A stretch of 64,000 bases of DNA from a phage: the sequence record PZ445431.1, one strand, 5' to 3'. Numbering within the stretch: position 1 is the stretch's first letter; every line of letters starts with the position of its first letter. The notes beneath the pieces were generated by a model. It had not been told where the DNA came from, made no database searches, and saw nothing but the letters and a program-made list of their open reading frames with translations. The position numbers were made by a program, and so were the translations under genes. Below, in pieces: positions 1 to 50,580 of this stretch.

Positions 1-419
1 TGAGCGTGAATGATTTCATCACGAGGGATACCAGCACGTTCCAGAAGGTCATCAACGTTAGTAGTGAAGTTCTTCACGCTATCCGCACCATAACGCTGGA
101 ACCATTCTGCAATTCGCAGATGGGCAATGTTAGGCTCAACAGTCTGTAATTCCTGACGACGCATGTTGTAGAACTCATGAGTCTTGAGATACAGATCGTT
201 ACCATCTTTATCAATGCCAGGGAAACGAGCACTGAAGTAGTTAGGATCATCTTCACCACAGAAGCGACGGAAGCCAGCTTCAAAGTTAGGCAAGCTACAT
301 ACTTCCTCTAGATCGTACTCATCCCACAAGGATTTCCCACTAGCAGTATCAGTACGGAAAGCACGAACACCACTATCTACACTCAAACCTGCACCACTAA
401 CAACGATTAGTCTACGCAT
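1..419 (-). CDS. Sir2-like NAD-dependent deacetylase/ADP-ribosyltransferase family protein, partial (C-terminus beyond window start)
   Basis: Minus-strand frame from ATG at 419-417 translates MRRLIVVSGAGLSVDSGVRAFRTD..., i.e. the sirtuin N-terminal GAG[IL]S..SG..FR motif; stop of upstream gene overlaps the ATG (TAATG); not in ORF track because truncated. Confidence 0.55.
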   Translation of the reverse strand, partial: MRRLIVVSGAGLSVDSGVRAFRTDTASGKSLWDEYDLEEVCSLPNFEAGFRRFCGEDDPNYFSARFPGIDKDGNDLYLKTHEFYNMRRQELQTVEPNIAHLRIAEWFQRYGADSVKNFTTNVDDLLERAGIPRDEIIHA

Positions 420-613
420 TATACGATTCCTTGCTTGAATCCTTCGATGATATTTTGGAGCAGAATTGCTTCTTCTGGGCGAACCTTCTCTTGCTTAATA
501 AGCATATCCAAACCAGCAATACAGGTAGCTACTCCAGCATTATACCCAGCATTCCACTGCTCCATGAGCATATTTTCTAAATTACTTTTTAGATTCTGAT
601 TCAAGAAGTCCAT
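419..613 (-). CDS. hypothetical small protein (about 65 aa; ORF track lists longer 419..697 form)
   Basis: GGAGGA RBS immediately upstream of internal ATG at 613; region upstream of 613 better explained by the overlapping 582..785 ORF. Confidence 0.4.
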   Translation of the reverse strand: MDFLNQNLKSNLENMLMEQWNAGYNAGVATCIAGLDMLIKQEKVRPEEAILLQNIIEGFKQGIV

Positions 614-25926: not shown

Positions 25927-26000
25927 ACATCCATAGCTCAATTGGTTAGAGCTACCGCCTCTTAAGCGGTAGGTTCTAGGTTCAAGTCCTTCATTGGAGA
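25927..26000 (+). tRNA. tRNA-Lys-like (anticodon CUU); acceptor/T stems imperfect
   Basis: Canonical D-arm GCTCAATTGGTTAGAGC and anticodon arm ACCGC-CTCTTAA-GCGGT; acceptor pairing poor by eye. Confidence 0.4.
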
Positions 26001-26010
26001 CCAAACAATT

Positions 26011-40332: not shown

Positions 40333-40713
40333 TTGAATTACGCATATCTTATAATACATAACAACGTGGTCTGTGGTACTCGTGCTGTAGAAATGGGAAT
40401 CACAGAAGAAAAATATAAGTCACTACCTGAAAAAGAGCAAGAATATTACGTTGAGCAAGCTGCTTGGGAATATGCTGAAGTTTATCCCGAAGAACGTGAA
40501 GGTCGTGTTACTATTGTTGTTGCTCTGGGGCTGGTGGGCTGTGATACCGAAGTTGATACAGATCTAGAAACACTTGAAGAATGGGAAGAGCTGGATATTG
40601 CAGAGCAAAATGCTATTATCCGTGAATCTTTCTGGGAAGCAGTAGACTGTCACGTTGTCTTTGAGCCAAACGATACAGAAGCTGAAAAACATACTAATTG
40701 GATGACTCGATAA
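40333..40713 (+). CDS. hypothetical acidic protein (126 aa)
   Basis: TTG start after conserved leader GAGAGGAGTATCACA; alternative ATG at about 40393. Confidence 0.45.
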   Translation: MNYAYLIIHNNVVCGTRAVEMGITEEKYKSLPEKEQEYYVEQAAWEYAEVYPEEREGRVTIVVALGLVGCDTEVDTDLETLEEWEELDIAEQNAIIRESFWEAVDCHVVFEPNDTEAEKHTNWMTR

Positions 40714-41576
40714 TGAAAAAAGAATTTAACCTGCATGAAATGTTAGTAGTACCAGACGATGTTAACCTGTTCTTCGTAGGAGATATTCACGGCTGTAATG
40801 ATATGCTGGAAGATGCTCTTAAACTAGCAGGATATAAAGAAAAGCGTGACTATGTTGTCTGTGTTGGCGACTTAATTGACCGTGGCCCGCAGAACTTACA
40901 GGTTCTAGCCAAATTCTTATATAACCCACGTTTCCGTAGCGTTCGTGGCAACCATGATCAGTTTATGATTGCCGGGGATTATGCCAACTGGATGTATAAT
41001 GGTGGAATGTGGGCAATGAATGATCTGGATACCGATACAATTAAAGGTATCGCAGAAGATATGGCAGTTAAAATGCCAGTATTCATGACTGTACTCCATC
41101 GTGGCAAGAAATACGGTATTGTTCATGGTGGAATACCATTCCAGTATAAAGATGCGGGATTCGATGTACATACACCTAATTGGGACGATATTATTGATCA
41201 TATCGCTGCAAGTGAAAATGATCCTAATGATCATCCTAGTTATTACATTGAGCCATATCTATGGGATCGTGATGTAATTCAGGAAATTGGGTTCATCCTA
41301 GCACGTGGAGGAGCTACTCATGAGTACTTCAATCGTTATGCTAGCTTTAAGAATCAGTTAGTAGTTGAAGTACCTCCAGTTAAAGGTGTGGACTATGTAT
41401 TCCATGGGCACACAGGTGTACCATACCCAATCCTGTACCAGAACCGCGTATACCTAGATACTGGCGGTGTGTTCAACGGGAAGTTGACGGTTGCGCAAGT
41501 TAATGATGAAGCCGGTAAGATTATGACATTTACCACAGATAAAAATGATAGCTGTGGTGTACAGAGGATTCTGTAA
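40713..41576 (+). CDS. serine/threonine protein phosphatase (calcineurin-like metallophosphoesterase, lambda-PPase type)
   Basis: GDIHGC, GDLIDRG, GNHD motifs. Confidence 0.8.
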   Translation: MKKEFNLHEMLVVPDDVNLFFVGDIHGCNDMLEDALKLAGYKEKRDYVVCVGDLIDRGPQNLQVLAKFLYNPRFRSVRGNHDQFMIAGDYANWMYNGGMWAMNDLDTDTIKGIAEDMAVKMPVFMTVLHRGKKYGIVHGGIPFQYKDAGFDVHTPNWDDIIDHIAASENDPNDHPSYYIEPYLWDRDVIQEIGFILARGGATHEYFNRYASFKNQLVVEVPPVKGVDYVFHGHTGVPYPILYQNRVYLDTGGVFNGKLTVAQVNDEAGKIMTFTTDKNDSCGVQRIL

Positions 41577-42088
41577 TGGCCGGTATTTCTCAGGAATACC
41601 TGAAGAGTAGACTAACCTATAATCCTGAAACATGGGAGTTTCGGTGGAAGCCTAACCCAAATGCTAGTAAAACATGGAATACTAGGTTTGCTGGTAAAGA
41701 AGCAGGTACTCTAAATAAAACTACCGGATATATCAATTTAACAATTGATGGGGTTAAGCATGGTGCACATAGAATGGCTTTCTTATACATGGAGGGCTAT
41801 TTACCTACTAAAGTGGATCACAAAGATACAATAAGAACAAATAATGCTTGGAGTAACCTTAGGGCTGCTGATAATGCTCAGAATACTTGGAATGCTGGTA
41901 TGAAAAGCTCCAATACTTCAGGATTTAAAGGTGTTTACTTAGATAAGCGTATAAATAAATATGTAGGTAGAGTTCGCTTTAGAGACAAAAGGTTCTCTAC
42001 TAAATATTATGAAAATGCTGAGGATGCAGCTAAAGAGTTGGAAATCCTTAGAGAACAGTTACATAAAGAATTTGCGAGGAATGAATAA
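41576..42088 (+). CDS. HNH homing endonuclease with AP2-type DNA-binding domain
   Basis: Same family as 6957, 28254, 39420; KVDHKDTIRTNNAWSNLR HNH core and AP2-like SGFKGVYLDK. Confidence 0.8.
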   Translation: MAGISQEYLKSRLTYNPETWEFRWKPNPNASKTWNTRFAGKEAGTLNKTTGYINLTIDGVKHGAHRMAFLYMEGYLPTKVDHKDTIRTNNAWSNLRAADNAQNTWNAGMKSSNTSGFKGVYLDKRINKYVGRVRFRDKRFSTKYYENAEDAAKELEILREQLHKEFARNE

Positions 42089-42686
42089 TGCGTGTTAAAT
42101 TCTGGTCGGATTTGCACTTAGACCACCCTGGAACTCTTCGCTTCCGTCCGTGGTTTAAGAATATGAAAGAACATGATGAATATATCCTAGATACTTTGTC
42201 CAAGCACATTGGCAAGCGTACTAAGCTCGTCTTGCTAGGGGATATTGCCGTGGGGCGTGAAGGGTTGGCTAAATTAAAGTCGGTTATCCACAATGTGCCT
42301 AACCAGTTAATCATGGGCAACCACGATGCTGAACGTCAGGGTCTGCATATTAAAGATCTTGTAGACGTTTATGATGATATTCAGGCTCTAGGTAAGCAAA
42401 CAGGTGGTGGCAAGAAGTTTTGGCTGTCACACTGTCACACTGTCCATTGCACGAAGCAGAACTTCGTGGTAAGCTAAACATTCACGGACATGTGCACACC
42501 AATTCTGTGCGCGACCCACGTTATATCAACATCTCTTTTGAGATGAGTAAGACTCCTATTCCTCTAGAAGATATTGTATCTGGCAAGTTCACAAGCTATG
42601 ATAGAGTAGTTAACTGCACTACTGGTGAAGTACTCCAAATCGATGAAGATGTGGCAGCAGTATTGAGGGGAGATATCAATGTTTGA
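42088..42686 (+). pseudogene. calcineurin-like metallophosphoesterase interrupted by a frameshift (8 bp tandem duplication)
   Basis: ORFs 42088..42477 (DLHLDH, GDIAVG, GNHD) and 42420..42686 (HGHVH) are two halves of one phosphoesterase; frames switch at CTGTCACA CTGTCACA (42424-42439); removing one copy restores ...FWLSHCPLHEAELRG... Confidence 0.65.
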
Positions 42687-42780
42687 TTTTGATGGTATGG
42701 CTCGTGAGATATTTATAGCAATAGGGGTAGTAGTTCTTATCTCTTTCTTTACGGGCCTAGGCTTAGGCCTTTTATTTTAA
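42679..42780 (+). CDS. possible small hydrophobic peptide (33 aa)
   Basis: ATG overlapping upstream stop (ATGTTTGA); single TM. Confidence 0.3.
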   Translation: MFDFDGMAREIFIAIGVVVLISFFTGLGLGLLF

Positions 42781-42788
42781 AACTTCAT

Positions 42789-42817
42789 TTGCTAAAATGC
42801 TTAGTTTTCTGTATAAT
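42789..42817 (+). promoter_or_regulatory. T5-type early promoter
   Basis: TTGCTA 42789-42794, TATAAT 42812-42817. Confidence 0.7.
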
Positions 42818-42847
42818 TACTTTATAAATTGATGAGAAGGAATCAAA

Positions 42848-43279
42848 ATGCAAAAGATTGATAAAGCACTTTTAATCGCAACAGCAGATAAGTTTGAGCA
42901 AGTTAAAGCTACTTTTAAGGCAGTCTTTCAGTCCTATGTTCAAGACAAATCGAACCCGATTTCTGAGCGTTTGATGATGTGGGAATGTTTTGCTTGCAAT
43001 GCTCTGCTAATTTCCGATTATAAGGGAGAAGTATCTGAGGAATTGCATGAGATCTTTATTAATGAGGATACTCCACGCTATCAGTTAGTGAACTTCCAAG
43101 ATCTAGCTGAGCAAGTTATTCCTGATGATCTTTGGGACAAGTATTACGGTGATCCTGAAGAAGATGGTATGGAACCTGAGAAGTGCATTGAACTGATCTG
43201 TAAAGATCATCCTGAAATTGCTGAGAAATTTGAGTTGGTATTTGCTTCGGAGTTCTCAGGTTTCGTTAACGATTGGTAA
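42848..43279 (+). CDS. hypothetical acidic protein (143 aa)
   Basis: ATG after conserved leader. Confidence 0.55.
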   Translation: MQKIDKALLIATADKFEQVKATFKAVFQSYVQDKSNPISERLMMWECFACNALLISDYKGEVSEELHEIFINEDTPRYQLVNFQDLAEQVIPDDLWDKYYGDPEEDGMEPEKCIELICKDHPEIAEKFELVFASEFSGFVNDW

Positions 43280-49979: not shown

Positions 49980-50580
49980 TGTCGGATTTGCACATTACAT
50001 TTCTAGAAATTTATGGTCGGATTTGCACATTGATAGGAGTCTCCAAAGTTTTTAGGAACACTGAAAATAGCAGCATTATTTCGGGCCGAAGGCCCATATT
50101 TGCCTGAGTTTTTAGAGCCACAGGAATTTTCACTTGTCAAGCGATTTTGCCCCATTTTGCTAATAAAATTTCGCTTTATCTCCCCTAATCTCAATTCTAG
50201 CCAAAACATCCCGCATTATCCTCAAAAATGCAGCAAACCGGTGCTAAAGCACCATCACCGCTGCTCCTTCCGTAGTTCCTCCCAAAATCTCATCGGATTC
50301 GCACTTCTCCCCAAACTCACACAATCACACACCCTCTCATCGAAGTCACAAAAATCTTGTCGGATTTGCACACCTTAACACTTGTCGGATTTGCACATAC
50401 TCTAGTAAACCCAGCTGGATTGCATCGCAGTTGCGGATTGCTGGAGTTTTTAGGAAAATTCATTGTCGGATTTGCACACTATAAAAATTTTTCGGGTAGG
50501 ATTTGCACATTACCAAAAATTGTCGGATTCGCACATACACGCCAGCACGTAACCCATGGAGCAAATGTCGGATTTGCACA
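49980..50580. repeat. iteron array: about 9 direct copies of TGTCGGATTTGCACA (minor variants)
   Basis: Copies at about 49980, 50016, 50291, 50359, 50383, 50464, 50496, 50521, 50566, all same orientation, irregular spacing. Confidence 0.9.

What the first reader, a model, noticed from the sequence alone, without database searches (positions are those of the whole stretch)
42088..42686. Metallophosphoesterase gene split by an 8 bp tandem duplication
Motifs DLHLDH, GDIAVG, GNHD (first ORF) and HGHVH (second ORF) belong to one calcineurin-like phosphoesterase. The frame changes exactly at CTGTCACA CTGTCACA (42424-42439); deleting one copy gives a continuous protein of about 197 aa. Either a recent inactivating duplication, a slippage-prone site, or an assembly error.
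Basis: seen in the sequence. Interest (0 to 1): 0.55.

Follow-up and report, generated by a model that had tools for sequence, protein, structure and literature searches.

The report
Phage phosphoesterase gene broken by duplication
In the T5-like coliphage TrudiRoth, a widely conserved accessory phosphoesterase gene is knocked out of frame by an 8-base tandem duplication found in no other phage sequence searched; this is an ordinary, strain-specific, probably recent inactivating mutation.

Summary
The window is Escherichia phage TrudiRoth (Bas30, MZ501109.1; Epseptimavirus, T5-like). At 42424-42444 the unit CTGTCACA is present 2.6 times. Relatives carry 1.6 copies (CTGTCACACTGTC) and an intact 591-nt, 196-aa gene.

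Of 142 GenBank phage records matching this stretch, only TrudiRoth has the extra copy. The junction is absent from IMG/VR, JGI metagenomes and GTDB genomes.

Removing one copy restores a protein that matches phrog_547 (E=5e-55). Its 97%-identical orthologue models confidently as a metallophosphoesterase (pLDDT 94.9; Foldseek top hit 1xm7).

The shift falls right after the motif IV histidine (H115). The 129-aa product therefore lacks eight invariant residues, including motif V (GHxH), and is almost certainly inactive.

Most likely mechanism: replication slippage between two CTGTC repeats 8 bp apart. There is no slippery heptamer, no credible restart codon and no link to the adjacent HNH homing endonuclease. 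The rest of the reading frame is undamaged, so the event is recent.

A sequencing or assembly artefact cannot be excluded without reads (Illumina, 50-100x) but is unlikely. The GenBank label "serine/threonine phosphatase" for the fragment is not supported.

Interest is low: a routine pseudogenising duplication.

The parts
42088..42477 (+). Truncated phosphoesterase ORF (129 aa). Residues 1-116 are native (motifs I-IV: D8/H10, G51-D52, G77-N78-H79-D80, H115), followed by 13 out-of-frame residues (HTVHCTKQNFVVS) and a TAA stop. Annotated in GenBank as bas30_0160 'serine/threonine phosphatase'.
42424..42444 (.). Period-8 tandem repeat CTGTCACA, 2.6 copies. The ancestral state in relatives is 1.6 copies (CTGTCACACTGTC), i.e. 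two CTGTC microhomologies 8 bp apart.
42432..42439 (.). The extra 8-bp copy. It could equally be assigned to 42424-42431, or to any 8-nt window starting at 42424-42437. Its removal restores the 591-nt gene.
42440..42686 (+). Stranded 3' part of the gene, still open in its native frame (residues 117-196: P117, H119, R124, H130-G131-H132-V-H134, Y143; native TGA stop at 42684-42686). No Shine-Dalgarno-preceded start codon.
42679..42780 (+). 33-aa hydrophobic ORF (phrog_18933) whose ATG overlaps the native phosphoesterase stop by 8 nt. Translational coupling is probably lost in this phage (inference).
42753..42770 (+). Terminator-like hairpin followed by a T-run, ending the transcription unit. 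A promoter-like site follows at 42789-42817.
41576..42088 (+). Context: HNH_3 + AP2 homing-endonuclease ORF immediately upstream (its final base is the A of the phosphoesterase ATG). Not annotated in MZ501109.1. No link to the duplication was found.
40713..41576 (+). Context: the genuine lambda/NinI-like Ser/Thr protein phosphatase (bas30_0159), a different metallophosphatase family.

Best explanation
A real, strain-specific 8-bp tandem duplication has pseudogenised an accessory metallophosphoesterase gene of phage TrudiRoth.

Mechanism (inferred from the sequence): the ancestral gene read GG-CTGTC-ACA-CTGTC-CATT. During replication the nascent CTGTC mispaired with the other CTGTC copy 8 bp away, so the unit CTGTCACA was copied twice.

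Consequence (shown): the +8 insertion shifts the frame right after His115-Cys116. Translation ends 13 codons later and yields a 129-aa fragment. That fragment lacks P117, H119, R124, the motif V metal ligands H130-G131-H132-x-H134, and Y143.

A binuclear metallophosphoesterase cannot complete its metal site without these residues, so the enzyme is almost certainly dead (inferred). The phage nevertheless propagates on E. coli K-12, so the gene is dispensable there.

The stranded 3' part is still an intact open frame with no excess of nonsynonymous changes. The event is therefore recent: shortly before isolation or during laboratory passage.
For: - The window is 100% identical to MZ501109.1 across the locus.
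- The closest relatives align with an exact 8-nt gap and have intact 591-nt genes annotated as phosphoesterase.
- Only the two TrudiRoth records among 142 matching phage records reach above 93.4% identity over the 121-nt stretch. 93.4% is the ceiling imposed by an 8-nt gap.
- The junction 24-mer is absent from IMG/VR, JGI metagenomes and GTDB genomes.
- The exact 129-aa product is on record only from this GenBank assembly.
- The ancestral CTGTC-N3-CTGTC microhomology is present in the nearest relatives.
- The restored protein matches phrog_547 (E=5e-55, residues 1-189) and Pfam Metallophos at 22.0 bits against a 21.5 cutoff.
- Sixteen columns are invariant in 52 homologues, eight of them downstream of the shift.
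- The AF2 model of the 97%-identical orthologue has pLDDT 94.9; the Foldseek top hit is 1xm7 (E=1.9e-11), followed by YfcE, Mre11, MJ0936 and LpxH.
- Codon differences to S126 are 6 synonymous / 2 nonsynonymous upstream of the shift and 3 / 2 downstream, so there is no sign of decay.
- The phage was sequenced on Illumina NextSeq at 50-100x, with ambiguities resolved by PCR and Sanger.
- The same gene carries independent frameshifts in EH1/EH7, an IMG/VR contig and probably S147, which is consistent with dispensability.
Against: - There is no access to reads, so the duplication rests on one deposited assembly.
- The window differs from that record elsewhere (a 979-bp deletion between tRNA-Lys copies). 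I could not establish that it is an independent assembly.
- Loss of activity is inferred from motif loss, not measured.
- Dispensability is inferred only from the phage being a propagating collection strain.
Confidence: 0.8

Rival explanations
1. Sequencing or assembly artefact, or a minority variant in the stock fixed by the consensus caller. The phage actually carries one copy and an intact gene.
For: - The variant exists in only one deposited genome (GenBank plus its RefSeq copy).
- The rest of the gene shows no decay.
- The record has other annotation and assembly oddities: an unannotated HNH ORF, and a 979-bp difference from the window at a tRNA-Lys repeat.
Against: - Illumina NextSeq at 50-100x, with ambiguities checked by PCR and Sanger.
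- From general knowledge: Illumina errors are substitutions, not 8-bp tandem insertions.
- From general knowledge: assemblers mis-join at repeats longer than their k-mer or read length, not at a 21-nt motif.
Confidence: 0.12
2. A reversible on/off switch (contingency-locus-like). The 8-bp repeat slips back and forth, so the phage population mixes phosphoesterase-ON and phosphoesterase-OFF genomes as bet-hedging.
For: - A tandem duplication is intrinsically prone to revert by slippage (general knowledge).
- Phage contingency loci were recently reported for homopolymer tracts in T2 and T4 (bioRxiv 10.1101/2025.10.21.683753).
- The same gene has a separate G4-to-G5 frameshift in EH1/EH7 and an IMG/VR contig.
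Against: - No copy-number variation at this site in the 140 other matching phage records, or in any collection scanned.
- Many relatives lack the microhomology through synonymous changes (CTATCTCACTGCCC), so it is not conserved as a device.
- Two to three copies of an 8-mer is far below typical phase-variable repeat numbers (general knowledge).
Confidence: 0.04
3. The gene is still expressed as a functional protein, through programmed -1 ribosomal frameshifting or transcriptional slippage in the 42396-42477 overlap, or as two separately translated complementing fragments.
For: The two frames overlap by 82 nt, and the downstream frame is intact to its native stop.
Against: - There is no X_XXY_YYZ heptamer in the overlap, and the only homopolymer run there is TTTT.
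- No start codon in the downstream frame is preceded by a Shine-Dalgarno sequence.
- The arrangement is not conserved: every relative examined at this site encodes a single frame across it.
- Any shifted product would carry about 3 extra residues inside the invariant W-L-S-H-x-P-x-H motif.
Confidence: 0.02
4. The duplication is a repair scar or immunity mutation linked to the adjacent HNH homing endonuclease (41576-42088), whose target would lie at this site.
For: - TrudiRoth and EH1/EH7 both carry this HNH gene, and both have a broken phosphoesterase gene.
- The duplication lies only 336 bp downstream of the HNH ORF.
Against: - HNH-positive AKM_ECS and RN29 have intact phosphoesterase genes.
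- HNH-positive EH1 has exactly the same site sequence as HNH-negative L010 and L021 (TGGCTGTCACATTGTCC).
- HNH-negative L021 shares EH1's G-run frameshift.
Confidence: 0.02

Closest known systems
Intact orthologues in Epseptimavirus phages (e.g. Salmonella phage S126 orf125 AXC41443.1, GreteKellenberger bas26_0166, 118970_sal2 = P0001)
   Same: Same locus and synteny. 97-98% amino-acid identity to the restored TrudiRoth protein, with the same 591-nt length and the same stop overlapping the 33-aa ORF.
   Different: They have one fewer CTGTCACA unit and therefore a single uninterrupted reading frame.
PHROG 547 'phosphoesterase': small phage metallophosphoesterases found in T5-like, Vi1-like, G7C-like, T4-like Acinetobacter, jumbo and Arthrobacter phages
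   Same: E=5e-55 over nearly the full length. tblastn finds homologues in 1120 phage records.
   Different: No member has a demonstrated substrate that I could find. The TrudiRoth copy is frameshifted.
Aquifex aeolicus Aq_1665 (PDB 1xm7), a structural-genomics metallophosphoesterase of unknown function
   Same: Best sequence match (E=0.002) and best structural match (Foldseek E=1.9e-11, TM 0.67/0.71, 26% identity). Similar size (195 aa), with the same LSHxP and IHGHVH motifs.
   Different: Cellular rather than viral, with no known function, so it gives no substrate assignment.
Mycobacteriophage A10ZJ24 Gp48, a metallophosphoesterase reported as a counter-defence nuclease (EMBO Rep 2025, PMC12287305)
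   Same: A small early phage metallophosphoesterase with the five motifs. Dispensable on a permissive host but required on another. This offers a possible functional analogy for why loss is tolerated on K-12.
   Different: Homology to the T5-like protein was not tested here because no sequence was available. This is a lead only.
Lambda/NinI-type Ser/Thr protein phosphatase (the label GenBank gives the fragment)
   Same: Same superfamily fold and metal-binding motifs I-III.
   Different: The restored protein does not hit phrog_246. It lacks GDxxDRG and has GDIAVG instead. The true NinI-like enzyme is the neighbouring gene at 40713-41576.

Membership tests
Calcineurin-like metallophosphoesterase superfamily (PF00149 / PF12850) | Motifs I-III: D-x-H, G-D, G-N-H-[DE] | tested here: met
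   D8/H10, G51-D52 and G77-N78-H79 are invariant, and D80 is conserved in >=90%, across 52 homologues. All are encoded in ORF1.
Calcineurin-like metallophosphoesterase superfamily (PF00149 / PF12850) | Motif IV His and motif V G-H-x-H present in the same polypeptide | tested here: not met
   H115 is the last conserved residue before the shift. H130-G131-H132-x-H134 are encoded only in the +2 frame downstream, so the 129-aa product lacks motif V. The feature is met in the restored sequence and in every intact orthologue examined.
Calcineurin-like metallophosphoesterase superfamily (PF00149 / PF12850) | Pfam gathering score | tested here: inconclusive
   Restored protein: PF00149 22.0 bits (cutoff 21.5), PF12850 24.3 bits (cutoff 27). 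N-terminal fragment: 19.5 and 21.4 bits, both below cutoff. C-terminal fragment: no hit.
Calcineurin-like metallophosphoesterase superfamily (PF00149 / PF12850) | Metallophosphoesterase fold | tested here: met
   AF2 model of orthologue P0001 has pLDDT 94.9 and pTM 0.91. Fifty PDB hits with E<=1e-3 are listed; those with a functional description are metallophosphoesterase-fold proteins (1xm7, YfcE, Mre11, MJ0936, LpxH, Vps29, MPE, Rv0805, GpdQ).
Calcineurin-like metallophosphoesterase superfamily (PF00149 / PF12850) | Metal-dependent phosphoester hydrolysis | not testable with these tools
   Needs an enzyme assay.
PHROG 547 phage phosphoesterase | Full-length profile match | tested here: met
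   E=5.1e-55, residues 1-189 aligned to profile positions 29-227 of 245, for the restored sequence.
Lambda/NinI-like Ser/Thr protein phosphatase (the GenBank product name) | Match to the PPP-type profile and a GDxxDRG motif II | tested here: not met
   No hit to phrog_246 and motif II is GDIAVG. The neighbouring gene hits phrog_246 at 5.4e-94 and has GDLIDRG.
PdeM / MPE ligase-associated nuclease (TIGR04123) | NCBIfam score above cutoff | tested here: not met
   24.1 bits against a cutoff of 150.
Programmed -1 ribosomal frameshift site | Slippery X_XXY_YYZ heptamer in the frame overlap, and conservation of the two-frame layout in relatives | tested here: not met
   No heptamer in 42396-42477. 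Relatives examined at this site have one frame across it.
Contingency locus / phase-variable simple sequence repeat | Repeat copy number varies among related genomes or within populations | tested here: not met
   All other matching records show identities consistent with the 1.6-copy state. The junction is absent from three large collections. Within-population variation is not testable without reads.
Slipped-strand tandem duplication (mutation class) | The inserted unit is an exact copy of the adjacent sequence, and the ancestral sequence has flanking direct microhomology one period apart | tested here: met
   The insert is CTGTCACA. The ancestral sequence CTGTC-ACA-CTGTC is present in S126 and GreteKellenberger.

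The most novel reading that the evidence does not exclude
The 8-bp repeat acts as a reversible switch. It would toggle a conserved early phage metallophosphoesterase, possibly a counter-defence enzyme like mycobacteriophage Gp48, between ON and OFF within TrudiRoth populations. The deposited consensus would then have captured the OFF state selected on defence-poor E. coli K-12.
Probability: 0.04. Interest if true: 0.45.

Novelty: new member of a known kind. Interest (0 to 1): 0.12.

Why it matters
- **Annotation.** bas30_0160 should be flagged as a frameshifted pseudogene of a PHROG-547 phosphoesterase. It is not a "serine/threonine phosphatase".
- **A natural knockout.** TrudiRoth (Bas30) is part of the widely used BASEL collection, and this family occurs in more than 1000 phage genomes with no known function. 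Comparing Bas30 with near-isogenic intact relatives such as GreteKellenberger (Bas26) and IrmaTschudi, or with a repaired Bas30, on defence-carrying hosts could reveal what the enzyme does.
- **Mutation biology.** Beyond this, it is a textbook slippage mutation.

Tried and rejected
- **Link to the upstream HNH homing endonuclease: rejected.** HNH-positive phages with intact genes exist. HNH-positive and HNH-negative phages share the same site sequence.
- **Programmed frameshift or internal restart: rejected.** No slippery heptamer and no Shine-Dalgarno-preceded start.
- **Independent occurrences of the duplication: none found.** The junction is absent from IMG/VR, JGI metagenomes and GTDB genomes. 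The exact 129-aa product is on record only from GCA_020892445.1.
- **Signs of pseudogene decay downstream of the shift: none.** There are too few substitutions for a formal dN/dS test.
- **Literature on the function or essentiality of the T5-type phosphoesterase: nothing specific.** The main texts of the CRISPRi-ART and HIDEN-SEQ papers do not mention it. The phage contingency-loci preprint concerns homopolymers of 6 or more bases only.
- **Whether the window is an independent assembly of the phage: unresolved.** It equals MZ501109.1 (49992..114488, then 1..482) minus 979 bp at a tRNA-Lys repeat.

Full report
**Identity of the window**

The region 41900-42900 is 100% identical to Escherichia phage TrudiRoth (Bas30, MZ501109.1 / NC_105117.1; Demerecviridae, Markadamsvirinae, Epseptimavirus). 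This is a T5-like phage of the BASEL collection, isolated on E. coli K-12. The whole window equals record positions 49992..114488 followed by 1..482. The one exception is that it lacks 979 bp of the record between two identical tRNA-Lys copies.

**The observation**

The sequence reads ...AAGAAGTTTTGG CTGTCACA CTGTCACA CTGTC CATTGCACGAAG..., with the two complete 8-mers at 42424-42439. Tandem Repeats Finder reports period 8, 2.6 copies and 100% matches over 42424-42444.

- ORF1 (42088-42477, 129 aa) carries DLHLDH, GDIAVG, GNHD and LSHC.
- The frame shifted by +2 is open from 42396 to 42686 and carries HGHVH.
- Deleting one 8-mer yields a single 591-nt ORF of 196 aa.

A plain 8+8 tandem match is expected about 1.4 times per shuffled window. 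The 21-nt period-8 run was seen in 0 of 200 shuffles.

**Comparative evidence that this is an insertion**

- S126, GreteKellenberger and EH1 align across the site with an exact 8-nt gap, and their sequence is TGG-CTGTCACA-CTGTCC or CTGTCACATTGTCC.
- S126 and GreteKellenberger have a 591-nt CDS annotated as phosphoesterase or serine/threonine phosphatase.
- With a 121-nt query centred on the site, 142 phage records match. Only the two TrudiRoth records are 100% identical. All others are at or below 93.4%, which is the ceiling an 8-nt gap imposes. The 28 other listed hits span 113 nt (one spans 114).
- The 24-nt junction GGCTGTCACACTGTCACACTGTCC has no exact match in IMG/VR, JGI metagenome contigs or the GTDB species genomes.
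- The exact 129-aa product is on record only from the TrudiRoth GenBank assembly.

The duplication is therefore private to this one deposited genome.

**What the gene is**

- The restored protein matches phrog_547 "phosphoesterase" (E=5.1e-55, residues 1-189).
- It marginally passes Pfam Metallophos (22.0 bits, cutoff 21.5). It falls below the gathering score of Metallophos_2 (24.3 vs 27).
- The best solved relative by sequence is Aquifex Aq_1665, PDB 1xm7 (E=0.002), with LSHYP and IHGHVH aligned to LSHCP and IHGHVH.
- In an alignment of 52 homologues down to about 31% identity, the invariant columns are D8, H10, G51, D52, G77, N78, H79, H115, P117, H119, R124, H130, G131, H132, H134 and Y143.
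- An AlphaFold2 model of the 97%-identical orthologue P0001 is confident (pLDDT 94.9, pTM 0.91). Its top PDB matches are 1xm7 (E=1.9e-11, TM 0.67/0.71), then YfcE, Mre11, MJ0936, LpxH, Vps29 and P. putida MPE. These are all binuclear metallophosphoesterase folds.
- tblastn finds homologues in 1120 phage records from many groups.
- No substrate is known for this family.

GenBank labels the fragment "serine/threonine phosphatase", and this is not supported. The protein does not hit the NinI/lambda-type family phrog_246 and has GDIAVG instead of GDxxDRG. The real NinI-like phosphatase is the neighbouring gene at 40713-41576.

**Consequence of the duplication**

The frame changes right after H115-C116, inside the invariant W-L-S-H-x-P-x-H block. 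The product ends after 13 foreign residues. It lacks eight invariant residues, including the motif V histidines. From established knowledge of the superfamily, motif V supplies metal ligands. The fragment is therefore inferred to be inactive, but this was not measured.

The stranded 3' part has no slippery heptamer upstream and no Shine-Dalgarno-preceded start codon. Recoding or two-piece expression is thus unsupported.

The 33-aa hydrophobic ORF at 42679-42780 (phrog_18933) overlaps the native stop by 8 nt. It probably loses translational coupling as a result (inference). A terminator-like hairpin at 42753-42770 ends the unit.

**Mechanism**

The nearest relatives read CTGTC-ACA-CTGTC, two 5-nt direct repeats one 8-nt period apart. 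TrudiRoth reads CTGTC-ACA-CTGTC-ACA-CTGTC. This is the classical signature of slipped-strand mispairing during replication. Many other relatives lack the microhomology through synonymous changes (CTATCTCACTGCCC). The repeat is therefore not a conserved device.

**Age of the event**

Apart from the duplication, the gene is 97-98% identical at protein level to its closest orthologues. Codon differences to S126 are 6 synonymous and 2 nonsynonymous upstream of the shift, and 3 and 2 downstream. No stop codon has accumulated in the native frame. The event is recent. It could have happened in nature shortly before isolation or during laboratory propagation.

**Artefact?**

BASEL genomes were sequenced on Illumina NextSeq 550 and assembled in Geneious at typically 50-100x. 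Ambiguities were resolved by PCR and Sanger. An 8-bp tandem insertion is not a typical Illumina or assembler error (general knowledge). Without reads this rival keeps about 12% of my confidence.

**Other hypotheses tested**

The upstream ORF 41576-42088 is an HNH_3 + AP2 homing endonuclease (Pfam 8.9e-11; phrog_99 5.8e-57). It is not annotated in MZ501109.1. EH1/EH7 carry the same endonuclease and also have a broken phosphoesterase gene, so I tested for a link.

- The EH1 lesion is different: one extra G in a GGGG run at codon ~56.
- HNH-positive AKM_ECS and RN29 have intact genes.
- HNH-negative IMG/VR contig L021 shares the G-run frameshift, and HNH-positive EH1 shares its duplication-site sequence with HNH-negative phages.

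No link is supported. A contingency-locus reading is also unsupported, because no other genome varies at this site. It cannot be fully excluded without population sequencing.

**Dispensability and possible function**

TrudiRoth is a working collection phage, used in the BASEL paper as the BtuB-dependent control. At least three other lineages carry frameshifted copies. The gene therefore seems dispensable under laboratory conditions.

One published analogy, whose homology I did not test, is mycobacteriophage A10ZJ24 Gp48. It is an early metallophosphoesterase that is dispensable on M. smegmatis but needed on M. tuberculosis as a counter-defence nuclease (PMC12287305).

**Verdict**

This is an ordinary strain-specific pseudogenising tandem duplication in a conserved but uncharacterised accessory phage enzyme. 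Its practical value is an annotation correction, plus the fact that Bas30 is a natural knockout of this family. Interest is low.

Noticed in passing
window 41576-42088 (+): A 170-aa HNH_3 + AP2 homing-endonuclease ORF (Pfam 8.9e-11, phrog_99 5.8e-57) sits between the two phosphatase genes. It is not annotated in MZ501109.1, which has a gap at 92547-93057. The same gene is annotated in AKM_ECS and RN29 and is 99% identical in EH1. HNH-less relatives (S126, GreteKellenberger) have unrelated small ORFs in its place (a 369-nt ORF; GreteKellenberger also annotates a 207-nt one).
   Followed up: yes
window ~25934-25990 (tRNA-Lys at 25928-26003): The window lacks 979 bp present in MZ501109.1 (75982-76960: two to three small ORFs and tRNA-Gly) between two identical tRNA-Lys(CTT) copies. 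Relatives carry the intervening segment. This is either a recombinational deletion variant, a collapsed repeat, or a different version of the genome. The window also runs past the record end into record positions 1-482.
   Followed up: partly
L004 (EH1) ~1842-1870; L021 (IMGVR_UViG_2974569706) ~2154-2182; homologous to window 42241-42265: The same phosphoesterase gene is frameshifted independently in EH1/EH7 and in one IMG/VR genome by GGGG becoming GGGGG at codon ~56. All share the local haplotype GATAGTGCCGTGGGGGCGAG. Salmonella phage S147 (T5-type orthologue) also gives two tblastn pieces. These could be homopolymer sequencing errors or recurrent loss.
   Followed up: partly
window 42679-42780 (+): A 33-aa hydrophobic ORF (MFDFDGMAREIFIAIGVVVLISFFTGLGLGLLF, phrog_18933) has an ATG that overlaps the native phosphoesterase stop by 8 nt. 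It is followed by a terminator-like hairpin (42753-42770) and a promoter-like site (42789-42817). RefSeq curators call a feature at this locus 'Rz-like spanin' in some relatives. Its translation may be affected by the upstream frameshift.
   Followed up: no
MG065642.1 26751-26864 (homologous to window 42372-42492): The record labelled 'Campylobacter phage A148' is a T5-like genome. Its match to this stretch is 114 nt rather than 113 nt, which hints at another 1-nt indel in the same gene. The record has no annotation.
   Followed up: no
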